In this document: in pieces, positions 82-8,614 of the stretch | Layout of the letters: the number at the start of each line of letters is the position of its first letter | How positions within the stretch are numbered: the stretch's first letter is position 1 | Assembly: GCA_048881705.1 (NCBI GenBank) | Contig: JBHLSH010000073.1 | Span: forward strand, 1-19,718 | Length of the DNA: 19,718 nucleotides | DNA from: Candidatus Heimdallarchaeota archaeon | Lineage (GTDB): Archaea > Asgardarchaeota > Heimdallarchaeia > Hodarchaeales > Hodarchaeaceae | Direction: 5' to 3' | The notes under the pieces: generated by a model | Databases searched by the model: none | Seen by the model: only the letters and a program-made list of their open reading frames with translations | What the model was told of the DNA's origin: nothing | Translations under genes and position numbers: made by a program

Positions 82-175
82 TGGGCCTGGGGGGATTTGA
101 ACCCACGATCATCCGGTTTCTCCGGTATATAAACCATATGAGCCGGACGCTTTGACCAGGCTAAGCTACAGGCCC
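82..175 (-). tRNA. tRNA with CAT anticodon, probably tRNA-Ile2 (agmatidine type), with a 19-nt intron at 37/38 (118..136)
   Basis: Acceptor GGGCCTG/CAGGCCC; anticodon stem TCCGG/CCGGA; loop CT-CAT-A | intron TGGTTTATATACCGGAGAA | A; T loop TTCAAAT. G1-C72 excludes the initiator. A GGGCC 5' end is typical of archaeal Ile tRNAs, whereas elongator Met usually starts GCC. Confidence 0.9.
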
Positions 176-5331: not shown

Positions 5332-7434
5332 ATGAAACAAATACGTAGGTTAGGCTACCAACTTTTTCTTGTAGGTGTCGTTTTTTCAAGCCTCTTTTTC
5401 GCATCAATTGCTGTGATTGCCTCTGGTAGGGTGATATCCCCTCAATCTTTGGATCACCAGGCAAGAATAGCGCCAAGCCCGACAAAACGAATTTCTCTGG
5501 AAGATCTGAACTTTTTTGATCCAGAAGACCTAACCAATACGAGTCACCAGGTCAATATCACCCGTACAATTGTGGCAAATCAATACGGGTATACAAGTGA
5601 GACCATCCGCATTGAAGTATCCAACAACGGGTTGAATCCGATAGATGCATTCAACCTCACTCTCCCCTTCGTGGAGTACAGCGATAATAGGTACCTCCGA
5701 GTTTTTTCGAGTAACGATACGGAGACCGAATACACGGAGTGGACCGAAATCGAAACGAATAATGATTCTGTTGTCTATGTGGTCGCTTTCCCAGAGATTG
5801 AACCTACTCACTCTTCAATCATCACGATTCAGATGGATCATCCTCATGCCGTCACCTATGACAAGGATATGCAGTTGGAAGAAGCTACGTTTCCATACTT
5901 CTTCAATCTTTCGTTCATTCCAATGATTTCCTTACCAATAACACGGTACCATGTTGATTGGTCCATAGGTAAGGATAAAACGGGAGCTGTGCTTCCGGTC
6001 TCCATAGATAATGAAACAATTACACCCGATCCATCGTCATTCACAGGAACTTTGACGAACGACCAGCAAGGAATTCGAATTGCGAACGTCACTGATTTAG
6101 CCACTATTGATAGAACCATATTGAACACAACTGAATATGGAAATTATAATCTAACTCGATTGGCGAACCTACCGTTTATTCCTGCCTATCAACCCAGATT
6201 GAAGGCCAATTTCACTGCCTATTATCTTTCATTTGATTATTCACAACAAGTCTATACTAGCATCGAATTTTCGTCTCTAACTACCAAGGTCATCGTCTCA
6301 GAATGGGGTTGGACAACCACGGTTCATGATATCGTAATCCGAAACATTGGAATCCAATCTGGATCAATATTGAAGACCGCGCTTGGCAGTAGCACGTTCC
6401 CATATATCGATTTCAATGTACCCGAGACTGCGCACAAAATTGGTTTCCGTGATAATTATGGCAACATTTCCATAGCATCCGCGTCAACAACTACCACAGG
6501 TAAAAAGATTGTCCAAATTAATCCGCGTGTTGAAATAGAAAAAGGTGAAATATATTACCTCCAAATGTCTTACCGCGAACGAACATCAGATATTGCTTCT
6601 GATCTCGGTAACGGCAGAATACAGCTTCATCTACCTCTGACGATCGCAAATAATTGGACCATAAGTCAATTCGAATTTAATTTGCTTCTACCTTTTGGAT
6701 CCACGTTCAACCTTGAAGATATGGTTAATTCGACCCAAAAACAGACTTTACGACACGTTCTTGCAAGTTCTACCGTTTCGGAAAGAGAATTTCTAGGATT
6801 GTTCAATCGTGTTGGAATTCATTTAATGTACCAGGAATTGACACCATTAAGCATTCGCTACGTTGATTTCATTGCAGGTCTTGCACCGGTGTACCCCTTC
6901 TATCAACCTCTCTCAATTTTCCTTTTCTTGCTCATACTTGGAATCGCTTACATTCTTGTTCGAAACATCTCATTTGGAATAAAACCCAGACGCGTATTAC
7001 TTGAAGAAATACCCCTAGATCTGATTAGGAATTTTGTCAAGAATTACGAAGAAAAAACAGCTGTCAGAGCTCAAATCTTGCGACTAGATAATAGACGCAA
7101 AACCAAGAAAATTTCGGCCCGCGAGTACGAAAAAACCCGGGCTCTTCTGAATAATCGGATGGAACAAGCCGATCGTTCCATTGTCAGTGTGTCACGGAAA
7201 TTGGCTGGCGAAAGTCGACGCTATCGAGTTGCTATGAGGACAATTGAAGTTGCAGAAGCCAGTCGTGAGGATATTTTGCTCAATATTGATTCGCTTGAGC
7301 GCAAAAAGACCCAGGGACGCATTGGAAAAGAAGCTTATGCGAAATTAAAACTCAGTTACGATAAGCAACTTCAAAGTGCGAACAATGAGATAGATAAAGT
7401 CTTAATTGAACTTCGAGCCTTGCTTACAGGGTGA
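5332..7434 (+). CDS. Ribophorin I (Ost1/RPN1)-like type I membrane protein, an OST accessory subunit homolog
   Basis: Architecture: signal peptide, beta-rich ectodomain, one TM, helical cytosolic tail. Collinear motifs match RPN1 as recalled: VNITRTI (EDVKRTVDL), VIVSEWG (IEVSHWG), PETAHKIGFRDNYGNIS...INPRVEI (PAAAQDVYYRDEIGNVS...IRPRFPL), YQPLSIF...LVRNISFGI (LQEPLLV...YVRLDFSI). Confidence 0.82.
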   Translation: MKQIRRLGYQLFLVGVVFSSLFFASIAVIASGRVISPQSLDHQARIAPSPTKRISLEDLNFFDPEDLTNTSHQVNITRTIVANQYGYTSETIRIEVSNNGLNPIDAFNLTLPFVEYSDNRYLRVFSSNDTETEYTEWTEIETNNDSVVYVVAFPEIEPTHSSIITIQMDHPHAVTYDKDMQLEEATFPYFFNLSFIPMISLPITRYHVDWSIGKDKTGAVLPVSIDNETITPDPSSFTGTLTNDQQGIRIANVTDLATIDRTILNTTEYGNYNLTRLANLPFIPAYQPRLKANFTAYYLSFDYSQQVYTSIEFSSLTTKVIVSEWGWTTTVHDIVIRNIGIQSGSILKTALGSSTFPYIDFNVPETAHKIGFRDNYGNISIASASTTTTGKKIVQINPRVEIEKGEIYYLQMSYRERTSDIASDLGNGRIQLHLPLTIANNWTISQFEFNLLLPFGSTFNLEDMVNSTQKQTLRHVLASSTVSEREFLGLFNRVGIHLMYQELTPLSIRYVDFIAGLAPVYPFYQPLSIFLFLLILGIAYILVRNISFGIKPRRVLLEEIPLDLIRNFVKNYEEKTAVRAQILRLDNRRKTKKISAREYEKTRALLNNRMEQADRSIVSVSRKLAGESRRYRVAMRTIEVAEASREDILLNIDSLERKKTQGRIGKEAYAKLKLSYDKQLQSANNEIDKVLIELRALLTG

Positions 7435-7846: not shown

Positions 7847-8128
7847 CTACTTGGATCCCGACAGGTTGAATGGTTTTCCCTCTTCCAAAATTGAAGAGGG
7901 AATCTGAACCCGGTATTTACGGAGAAACTCTAAATCCTCCGCCTCTTTTCGTAGATCATCAGGGAGCATAACTGGAATAGTTTTTCTAATAGGATAATAT
8001 CGTTTACATTTTCCGCAATGGATAAGGCCGGATTCCACTTCTAAATCGCTGCTTTCAAACACTAAAAGCTCTAACTCGGGGTTCTTACACATCGGACAGG
8101 CCAAGATCTCCATTAATTCTCTTTTCAT
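7847..8128 (-). CDS. trm112: Trm112-family methyltransferase activator
   Basis: MKRELMEILACPMCK...GLIHCGKCKRYYPI...IPVMLPDDLR zinc-ribbon signature, plus a short C-terminal extension. Confidence 0.93.
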   Translation of the reverse strand: MKRELMEILACPMCKNPELELLVFESSDLEVESGLIHCGKCKRYYPIRKTIPVMLPDDLRKEAEDLEFLRKYRVQIPSSILEEGKPFNLSGSK

Positions 8129-8133
8129 AATAT

Positions 8134-8204
8134 CACTTCAGACGGCTCTTCACACATTCATCGTTGTCTGGACAACTCTGCCGGGGATAACATCATCATC
8201 AGCG
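8134..8204 (-). ncRNA. Box C/D 2'-O-methylation guide sRNA with two guides to 23S rRNA domain V
   Basis: Minus strand reads: stem CGCT, G, C box ATGATGA (8199-8193), guide TGTTATCCCCGG, D' CAGA, hairpin GTTGT-CCAG-ACAAC, C'-like ACGATGA, guide ATGTGTGAAGAGCCGT, D box CTGA (8141-8138), stem AGTG. The guides complement the conserved LSU rRNA sequences CCGGGGAUAACA and CGGCUCUUC. Confidence 0.88.
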
Positions 8205-8293
8205 ACTTTTTACAGGAATGGGGATTGACGGATTCTTCGATACGAATATGCAGAAGCTGCCTTCTACTGTAATAGCGATGTATACAAGGAAGA

Positions 8294-8614
8294 TTAATAG
8301 GTCACTGGATATATTATTATTAGAACTAATAGAGCGAGGATACTTACAGAACAGATTATAAACCATTCACGATAATATTTTCTTTTCTCGGTCTGGTTAA
8401 TACTTTTTGATAGCTGAATACGAAAATTCCATGTGAACAATACGATCAGGGCTGTTAGAAAGATAAGCATGACGTGTTGAATGGTTCGATCAAGGAATCC
8501 CAAATATAAGACAATTGCTGCGGCCAATATTATGATAGAACCCAAAATTGATAAGTCTAGAAGCTTCACAGACTTAGGAAGTTCAGACCAGCGTTTGACA
8601 TCGCTAGTAGTCAC
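8294..8614 (-). CDS. Small 3-TM membrane protein, candidate DAD1/Ost2 (OST subunit) homolog
   Basis: GTG start with a perfect AGGAGG SD 8 nt upstream; three hydrophobic segments. PxxVKLLD and FRIQL occur at nearly the DAD1 spacing. The CDS is well supported; the family call is tentative. Confidence 0.6.
   Translation of the reverse strand: MTTSDVKRWSELPKSVKLLDLSILGSIIILAAAIVLYLGFLDRTIQHVMLIFLTALIVLFTWNFRIQLSKSINQTEKRKYYREWFIICSVSILALLVLIIIYPVTY

What the first reader, a model, noticed from the sequence alone, without database searches (positions are those of the whole stretch)
8134..8204. Unannotated dual-guide box C/D sRNA targeting the peptidyl-transferase region at sites methylated in eukaryotes
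Seen: complete C-D'-C'-D architecture with k-turn geometry. The D' guide is a 12/12 complement of CCGGGGAUAACA and the D guide complements CGGCUCUUC. By the established +5 rule the targets are G2446 and C2510 (E. coli 23S numbering). From recall, these equal yeast Gm2815 (snR38)/human Gm4392 (SNORD1) and human Cm4456 (SNORD49). Inference: one archaeal sRNA does the job of two separate eukaryotic snoRNAs, suggesting these methylations predate eukaryotes.
Basis: partly seen in the sequence, partly recalled or inferred. Interest (0 to 1): 0.85.

Follow-up and report, generated by a model that had tools for sequence, protein, structure and literature searches.

The report
Asgard dual-guide rRNA methylation guide RNA
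This is a real, unannotated ~70-nt box C/D guide RNA of a Hodarchaeales (Asgard) archaeon that most likely directs sugar methylation of two nucleotides in the ribosome's catalytic centre; eukaryotes methylate the same two sites, but it is an ordinary member of a known RNA class and the same target pair is already published for Methanopyrus.

Summary
On the minus strand (8206..8132) lie a terminal stem, C box AUGAUGA, a 12-nt D' guide, D' box CAGA, a 5-bp hairpin, a degenerate C' box, a 13-nt D spacer and D box CUGA. The RNA ends 9 nt before a Trm112-like gene.

- **Conservation:** the RNA occurs in 18 of 21 congeneric genomes. Boxes, guides and stems are invariant; the loop and flanks vary.
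- **Wider spread:** covariance models find the same RNA in four further Asgard families.
- **Machinery:** the host encodes Nop5, fibrillarin and L7Ae.
- **Targets:** the host's own 23S domain V is not assembled. A congener's 23S gives 11 Watson-Crick pairs plus one G-U for the D' guide (target G2446) and 9 of 9 for the D guide (target C2510).
- **Covariation:** two other lineages show compensatory guide and target changes, one of them at position 2510 itself.
- **Numbering:** the mapping to yeast Gm2815, human Gm4392 and human Cm4456 checks out.

Novelty is modest. Methanopyrus kandleri sR7 (Dennis 2015) has the same two targets in the same order, and Nanoarchaeum sR03 also targets G2446. Dual guides are the archaeal norm. 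This scan noted the same RNA before in other genomes. Expression and methylation are untested. Verdict: a new member of a known kind.

The parts
8201..8206 (-). 5' half of the terminal stem (GUCGCU). The inner 4 bp are conserved.
   Evidence: Pairs with 8137-8132 in the MFE fold. CACU/AGUG or CGCU/AGUG is conserved with covariation.
8193..8199 (-). C box AUGAUGA
   Evidence: Matches the RUGAUGA consensus. UGAUGA is invariant in 17 of 18 aligned homologues.
8181..8192 (-). D' guide UGUUAUCCCCGG. The core GUUAUCCCCG (8191-8182) is invariant. The +5 nucleotide is C8185, pairing with 23S G2446.
   Evidence: Invariant 10-mer. Its best and only full rRNA match is CCGGGGGUAACA in congener 23S, with 11 WC + 1 GU. 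Guide and target covary in G142.
8177..8180 (-). D' box CAGA (NNGA; the GA is invariant)
   Evidence: variants are CAGA, AUGA, UUGA, CUGA and AGGA, always 12 nt after the C box.
8163..8176 (-). Internal hairpin GUUGU-CCAG-ACAAC, closing the C'/D' motif into a k-turn-like stem
   Evidence: MFE fold. GUUG/CAAC is invariant in the genus, the fifth pair covaries, and the stem is replaced by other complementary stems in G124, G280 and G281.
8155..8161 (-). Degenerate C' box AUGAAUG (UGA invariant)
8142..8154 (-). D spacer UGUGAAGAGCCGU. The conserved guide is GAAGAGCCGU (8151-8142). The +5 nucleotide is G8146, pairing with 23S C2510.
   Evidence: Invariant 10-mer, while the 5' three nucleotides vary. 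It matches CGGCUCUUC 9/9 in congeners G005 and G008. G129 has a compensatory guide A opposite target U2510.
8138..8141 (-). D box CUGA
   Evidence: Invariant.
8132..8137 (-). 3' half of the terminal stem (AGUGAU)
7847..8128 (-). Trm112-like gene (93 aa) starting 9 nt after the D box. This is neighbouring context, not part of the RNA.
   Evidence: PF03966, E = 1e-10. The sRNA lies directly upstream in all 10 Hodarchaeales-type loci but not in other families.

Best explanation
Window 8206..8132 (minus strand) encodes a box C/D sRNA.

Inferred mechanism, from the established archaeal model:
1. L7Ae binds the terminal C/D k-turn and the hairpin-closed C'/D' k-turn.
2. A Nop5 dimer and two fibrillarins assemble on them.
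3. Each ~10-bp guide-rRNA duplex places the nucleotide opposite guide position +5 in a fibrillarin active site.
4. The D' guide would give Gm2446 and the D guide Cm2510 (E. coli numbering) in 23S rRNA. These sites lie on the two strands flanking helix 89, at the peptidyl-transferase centre.
5. Because the two targets are 64 nt apart, the RNA may also hold these strands together during folding.

Shown here: the anatomy, the conservation, stem covariation, guide-target covariation, and the presence of the three protein genes.

Inferred only: expression as a discrete RNA, RNP assembly, and actual methylation.
For: - **Anatomy and coordinates:**
- **Conservation:** present in 18/21 congeners, with invariance confined to boxes, guides and stems.
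- **Stem covariation:** 7 of 9 pairs covary.
- **Other Asgard families, both guides kept:** G124 (E 6e-16), G281 (3e-14), G280, G282 and G129.
- **Other Asgard families, D' guide only:** family f19.
- **Targets in congeners:** G005 23S, 83% identical to the host 23S over the shared part, and G008.
- **Guide-target covariation, G129:** its 23S has U2510 and its D guide has A at +5.
- **Guide-target covariation, G142:** its 23S has CCCUAGGGGUAACA and its D' guide UGUUACUCCUAG pairs 12/12.
- **Other targets:** no comparable match in host 16S, the host 23S 5' part or 35 tRNAs.
- **Chance expectation:** 0.055% for both guides.
- **Machinery:** Nop5-fibrillarin operon on G000:C27 and L7Ae on C58.
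- **Precedent:** M. kandleri sR7 has the same two targets.
Against: - The host's own 23S is cut at model position 2078, so the target region is missing and could not be paired directly.
- The D guide forms only 9 contiguous pairs, with a U-U at position 1.
- The D' duplex carries a G-U wobble if the host has G2448, as its relatives do.
- The C' and D' boxes are degenerate and the C'-D spacer is 13 nt rather than 12.
- The fold z-score is unremarkable at -1.08, as expected for C/D RNAs.
Confidence: 0.8

Rival explanations
1. The element is mainly a cis-acting leader of the trm112-like mRNA. An L7Ae-binding k-turn placed over the ribosome-binding region would control Trm112 translation. The rRNA complementarity would be secondary.
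For: The D box ends 9 nt before the trm112 ATG in G000 and G001. The RNA sits upstream of trm112 on the same strand in all 10 Hodarchaeales-type loci. L7Ae is reported to bind k-turns in archaeal mRNAs (PMC5539422 abstract).
Against: In other congeners the gap to the ATG is 36-52 nt or more. Homologues in families f15, f18, f19 and f21 have no trm112 nearby, yet keep the guides and covary with 23S. Invariance of two 10-nt guides is not needed for a k-turn operator.
Confidence: 0.1
2. The RNA acts chiefly as an rRNA-folding chaperone. It would clamp the two strands flanking helix 89 during assembly, with methylation absent or incidental at one or both sites.
For: The two targets are 64 nt apart on either side of H89. 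Dennis 2015 describes double guides with closely linked targets and proposes a folding role (PMC4644070; PMC7994747).
Against: The register of both guides relative to the D' and D boxes is strictly conserved. The +5 nucleotide itself covaries with its target in G129. That fits selection on the methylation geometry, and the two roles are not exclusive.
Confidence: 0.07
3. It is a chance arrangement of box-like motifs in an intergenic spacer, or the guides target another RNA such as a tRNA or an mRNA.
For: Short box motifs are common. The best tRNA match is 8 WC + 1 GU + 1 mismatch, in tRNA-Leu(CAA). 9- to 12-mers complementary to the guides occur in coding regions of the genome.
Against: Genus-wide and cross-family conservation, stem covariation and guide-23S covariation. 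The genomic matches are no more numerous than chance predicts.
Confidence: 0.02

Closest known systems
Methanopyrus kandleri C/D box sRNA sR7 (MKAsR7; supplement of Dennis et al. 2015, PMC4644070)
   Same: A dual-guide sRNA. Its D' guide GGUAAUCCCCGG followed by CCGA puts +5 on G2446. Its D guide CGGAGAGCCGG followed by CGGA puts +5 on C2510. These are the same two sites, in the same D'/D order (sequence; M. kandleri 23S row; registers derived here).
   Different: MKAsR7 has a short 9-nt D'-C' spacer and a canonical C' box UGAUGA. The Asgard RNA has a 15-nt hairpin-closed spacer and degenerate C' and D' boxes. Guide flanks differ. Common descent versus independent pairing of two neighbouring hotspot guides is undecided.
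Nanoarchaeum equitans sR03 and sR04, and Sulfolobus acidocaldarius sR7 (same supplement)
   Same: The NeqsR03 D' guide AAUUAUCCCCGC followed by CCGA targets G2446. It tolerates the same U-G wobble at G2448, because N. equitans 23S also reads GGGGGUAAC. NeqsR04 and Sac-sR7 guides pair with the CGGCUCUU segment.
   Different: NeqsR04 and Sac-sR7 put +5 on G2509, one nucleotide from C2510. In these species the two guides sit on separate sRNAs.
Eukaryotic snR38 / SNORD1A-C / plant snoR38 (Rfam RF00213) and SNORD49A/B (RF00277)
   Same: They guide methylation of the homologous nucleotides: yeast Gm2815, human Gm4392, Arabidopsis Gm2805, Dictyostelium Gm3148, and human Cm4456. The RF00213 consensus carries GUUAUCCCUGU-CUGA as a D' guide, in the same register as here.
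   Different: The eukaryotic RNAs are two separate, longer, single-guide snoRNAs. Rfam scores are far below gathering: snoR38 24.4 against 45 bits, and SNORD49 11.4 against 37 bits. snoR38 is not among the hits for two other Asgard homologues. The similarity is explained by the boxes plus a target-constrained guide.

Membership tests
Archaeal box C/D sRNA (2'-O-methylation guide) | C box RUGAUGA near the 5' end and D box CUGA near the 3' end, brought together by a terminal stem | tested here: met
   AUGAUGA at 8199-8193, CUGA at 8141-8138, and a 4-6 bp stem. The boxes are invariant in homologues and the stem covaries.
Archaeal box C/D sRNA (2'-O-methylation guide) | Internal D' and C' boxes that can form a second k-turn or k-loop | tested here: met
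   The D' box is NNGA and the C' box is AUGAAnn. The GA and UGA that form the sheared pairs are invariant, and the motif is closed by a conserved hairpin. Both boxes are degenerate relative to consensus.
Archaeal box C/D sRNA (2'-O-methylation guide) | Guide spacers of about 12 nt between C and D' and between C' and D | tested here: met
   12 nt between C and D', and 13 nt between C' and D.
Archaeal box C/D sRNA (2'-O-methylation guide) | At least 9-10 bp of guide complementarity to the host's rRNA or tRNA, with the target opposite position +5 | tested here: inconclusive
   Host 23S domain V is not assembled. The feature is met on congener G005/G008 23S (11 WC + 1 GU; 9 WC) and supported by guide-target covariation in G129 and G142.
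Archaeal box C/D sRNA (2'-O-methylation guide) | The host encodes L7Ae, Nop5 and fibrillarin | tested here: met
   PF01798 at 222 bits and PF01269 at 252 bits, adjacent on G000:C27. PF01248 at 86.6 bits on C58.
Archaeal box C/D sRNA (2'-O-methylation guide) | Expressed as a discrete small RNA, with the target ribose methylated | not testable with these tools
   No RNA run is listed for this DNA, and no modification data exist.
Rfam snoR38 (RF00213) / eukaryotic snR38-SNORD1 | Score at or above the family's gathering threshold (45 bits) | tested here: not met
   24.4 bits, E = 0.045. The family is absent from the hit lists of the G142 and G281 homologues.
M. kandleri sR7-type double guide (G2446 + C2510) | The D' guide puts +5 on G2446 and the D guide puts +5 on C2510 of 23S | tested here: met
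   Registers were derived from the sequences and compared. Whether the two RNAs are orthologous by descent was not resolved.

The most novel reading that the evidence does not exclude
The Asgard RNA, and with it M. kandleri sR7, would be the direct evolutionary ancestor-type of the eukaryotic snR38/SNORD1/snoR38 family. The D' guide for G2446 would have been inherited vertically into eukaryotes in the same register. The C2510 guide would later have separated onto SNORD49-type snoRNAs. That would make this one of the first individual snoRNA lineages traceable across the archaeon-to-eukaryote transition.
Probability: 0.15. Interest if true: 0.7.

Novelty: new member of a known kind. Interest (0 to 1): 0.4.

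Why it matters
No catalogue of Asgard box C/D sRNAs turned up in the searched literature. This RNA is conserved across Hodarchaeales and at least four further Asgard families. Its two guides covary with the 23S peptidyl-transferase region.

It shows that the closest archaeal relatives of eukaryotes carry guides for Gm2446 and Cm2510, both of which are methylated in eukaryotic ribosomes. Together with the Methanopyrus and Nanoarchaeum precedents, this makes an archaeal origin of these two marks plausible. It also gives a concrete test case for whether specific snoRNA guides were inherited or re-invented.

Practically, it adds an annotation and a covariance model for Asgard genomes. It does not reveal a new mechanism.

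Tried and rejected
1. **Pairing with the host's own 23S.** The host 23S on G000:C9 stops at model position 2078. No domain V or VI motif exists anywhere in the 155 contigs.
2. **Two tempting 23S contigs in congeners are contaminants.** G001:C57 is only 64-71% identical to the host 23S. G006:C310 is of the bacterial CUCAUC type.
3. **Closed congeners.** G010 and G016 gave no RF02540 match.
4. **Rfam at gathering thresholds.** No hit at the locus. At E-value thresholds there are only sub-threshold generic C/D hits. snoR38 tops the list by bit score in the window but not in other homologues, so it was rejected as evidence of membership.
5. **Expression.** No RNA holder is listed among public runs, and read laying was not used.
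6. **Alternative targets.** tRNAs, 16S and the 5' part of 23S gave nothing comparable.
7. **trm112 synteny outside the genus.** None found.
8. **23S of G124, G280, G281 and G282 for further covariation tests.** These regions are not assembled; the matches found lie outside recognisable 23S or are unconfirmed 2-mismatch hits.
9. **Thermoproteus tenax sR140.** It carries GUUAUCCCCGGC, but its 23S reads CCAGGAAUAAC, so it was not counted as a G2446 guide.
10. **Promoter.** TATA-like AT-rich boxes lie about 20-28 nt upstream in several congeners, but none is clear in the window. This is left open.
11. **Literature on Asgard sRNAs.** Nothing specific was found.

Full report
**What is there.** Read on the minus strand, window 8206..8132 has every element of an archaeal box C/D sRNA:
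- terminal stem GUCGCU/AGUGAU
- C box AUGAUGA (8199-8193)
- 12-nt D' guide UGUUAUCCCCGG (8192-8181)
- D' box CAGA (8180-8177)
- hairpin GUUGU-CCAG-ACAAC (8176-8163)
- degenerate C' box AUGAAUG (8161-8155)
- 13-nt D spacer ending in GAAGAGCCGU (8154-8142)
- D box CUGA (8141-8138)

Nine nucleotides further on begins a 93-aa Trm112-like ORF (PF03966). Rfam at gathering thresholds reports only three tRNAs in the window.

**Organism.**
- The window carries a Ribophorin I-like ORF.
- Close relatives of the Trm112 gene lie in MAGs titled Hodarchaeota, Hodarchaeum mangrovi or Heimdallarchaeota bin6. The host is therefore a Hodarchaeales-type Asgard archaeon.
- It encodes an adjacent Nop5-fibrillarin pair, and L7Ae.

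**Is it more than chance?**
- A BLAST search and a covariance model (R1) find the element in 18 of 21 congeneric genomes. They find it in none of 62 other genomes of the class at E <= 0.01.
- In the 18-sequence alignment the invariant columns are the C box, a 10-nt D' guide core, the GA of D', the GUUG/CAAC stem, the UGA of C', a 10-nt D guide core, the D box and the terminal stem.
- The hairpin loop, the first nucleotides of the D spacer, guide positions 1 and 12, and the flanks all vary.
- On the wider alignment, 95.8% of stem cells pair, against 28-65% when partners are slid. Seven of nine pairs show double changes.

**Wider distribution.**
- A pattern search for the D guide plus D box, followed by models R1 and R2, found homologues in another Asgard class.
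- G124 (f15), G129 (f18) and G280, G281 and G282 (f21) keep both guides.
- Six f19 genomes keep only the D' guide and carry a different D guide.
- The C2510 guide also appears as the D' guide of other sRNAs, in family f24 (5 of 7 genomes) and family f7.
- Linkage to trm112 is confined to the Hodarchaeales genus.

**Targets.**
- The host 23S on contig C9 is cut at model position 2078. No domain V sequence exists in the assembly.
- Two 23S contigs in congener MAGs proved to be contaminants.
- Congener G005 has a 23S that is 83% identical to the host's over the shared 943 nt. It reads CCCCGGGGGUAACAGAG and UCGAUGUCGGCUCUUCC. G008 shares the second segment.
- The D' guide pairs there with 11 Watson-Crick pairs plus one U-G wobble at G2448. 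The D guide pairs with 9 Watson-Crick pairs.
- These are the unique best matches in a composite of host 16S, host 5' 23S and G005 3' 23S. tRNAs offer nothing comparable.
- G at position 2448 is seen in every Heimdallarchaeia 23S recovered, in G129 and G142, and in Nanoarchaeum.
- Random genomic 10-mer and 9-mer pairs both hit this rRNA set in 0.055% of trials.

**Guide-target covariation.** This is the strongest new evidence.
- G129's 23S has GAUGUCGGUUCUUCC, with U in place of C2510. Its D guide reads GGAAGAACCGC, so the guide nucleotide at +5 is A. This restores a perfect 10-bp duplex.
- G142's 23S has CCCUAGGGGUAACA. Its D' guide UGUUACUCCUAG pairs 12/12. The target changes C2443U and G2444A are matched by guide changes.
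- The register keeps +5 on 2446 and 2510 throughout.

**Numbering and the eukaryotic sites.**
- The E. coli row of the Dennis 2015 alignment places CCGGGGAUAACA at 2442-2453 and CGGCUC at 2507. This is consistent with the known m2G2445, D2449, A2451, Cm2498 and m2A2503.
- PMC8817022 tabulates yeast Gm2815/snR38 = human Gm4362/snR38A-C = Arabidopsis Gm2805 = Dictyostelium Gm3148, and Gm2922 = Gm4469.
- PMC9941101 gives Cm4456 (Cm4426)/SNORD49A/B.
- By the same arithmetic, Dictyostelium Cm3212 (CD38) is also the C2510 equivalent. This is an inference.

**What is already known.**
- An earlier follow-up note of this scan (e1-5680784) stated that Methanopyrus sR7 has the same target pair. I checked it.
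- MKAsR7 reads AUGACGA-GGUAAUCCCCGG-CCGA ... UGAUGA-CGGAGAGCCGG-CGGA. Against the M. kandleri 23S row, +5 falls on G2446 and C2510, in the same D'/D order.
- NeqsR03 also puts +5 on G2446, with the same U-G wobble. NeqsR04 and Sac-sR7 hit G2509.
- Double guides with nearby targets are the archaeal norm.
- The RNA is therefore a new (Asgard) member of a known kind. Its internal hairpin and degenerate C'/D' boxes are a minor architectural variation.
- The scan has also noted the same RNA in other genomes.

**Relation to eukaryotic snoRNAs.**
- Rfam snoR38 is the highest-bit-score sub-threshold hit for the window (24.4 against 45 bits). It aligns its D' guide GUUAUCCCUGU-CUGA in the same register.
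- It is absent from the hit lists of two other Asgard homologues.
- The resemblance is what boxes plus a target-constrained guide would give. It is not evidence of membership or descent.

**Mechanism and confidence.**
- Best reading (0.8): a methylation guide that forms an L7Ae/Nop5/fibrillarin RNP and directs Gm2446 and Cm2510 on the strands flanking helix 89, possibly also aiding folding.
- A cis-regulatory role on trm112 may be an add-on in G000 and G001, where the gap is 9 nt. It cannot be the conserved function.
- Expression and methylation remain untested, since no RNA runs are listed.

Noticed in passing
G000:C9:70390-72465 (L001); G001:C38 (L028/L034): The host 23S and that of its closest congener both break at the same model position (2078), at a contig end. 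G008's contig ends exactly at AACAGAG (E. coli ~2450). The 23S genes of this genus seem to be interrupted by introns or mobile elements, which would explain why domain V is rarely assembled.
   Followed up: partly
L055:1434-1477 (G005:C44); L058-L062 (family f4): A 44-nt insertion with a GUGUAG/CUACAC stem sits in the loop of 23S helix 89, between the two sRNA target sites, in G005. Family f4 genomes have an insertion of about 70 nt at the same place. G008 has none. It could be a mini-intron or an expansion segment next to the PTC.
   Followed up: no
L064-L069 and L036-L049 (family f3 genomes): Family f3 23S genes carry an intron inserted right after GGGGUAAC (C2452). That is exactly the 3' edge of the conserved 10-nt D' target core.
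   Followed up: no
L055, L064-L078, L238, L240: Every Asgard 23S recovered here has G instead of the usual A at E. coli position 2448 in the PTC central loop, as does Nanoarchaeum equitans. The genus's D' guide keeps U opposite it (a wobble), whereas the D' guides recovered from families f15 and f18, from G281 (f21) and from four f19 genomes (G138, G140, G141, G142) have C there.
   Followed up: partly
G001:C57 (L026); G006:C310 (L025): These are probably contaminant rRNA contigs in congener MAGs. One is a full archaeal 23S only 64-71% identical to the genus. The other is a bacterial-type 23S fragment.
   Followed up: partly
L016:2042-2127 (G017:C187): A second, inverted copy of the sRNA lies about 550 nt from the first. 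It has intact guides but a destroyed C box (GGCAUUGA), so it looks like a decaying duplicate. G013 and G021 carry partially rearranged copies.
   Followed up: no
window 82-175 (-): Rfam calls a 94-nt tRNA here (57.5 bits) that ARAGORN does not report. It is probably an intron-containing tRNA next to tRNA-Asn.
   Followed up: no
window 5332-7434 (+): A 700-aa ORF with a Ribophorin I domain (PF04597, E = 3.6e-12). This is a eukaryote-signature OST subunit typical of Asgard genomes.
   Followed up: no
window 8199-8366 (-): A 55-aa ORF with no Pfam hit ends with its TGA stop inside the start of the sRNA (8201-8199, overlapping the stem and C box). It is probably not a gene.
   Followed up: no
L210-L212 (family f24); L183-L184 (family f7): The C2510 guide (A)GGAAGAGCCGU-CUGA occurs as the D' guide of a different sRNA with a classical short k-loop spacer. 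So the same guide sits in different sRNA contexts in different Asgard families.
   Followed up: partly
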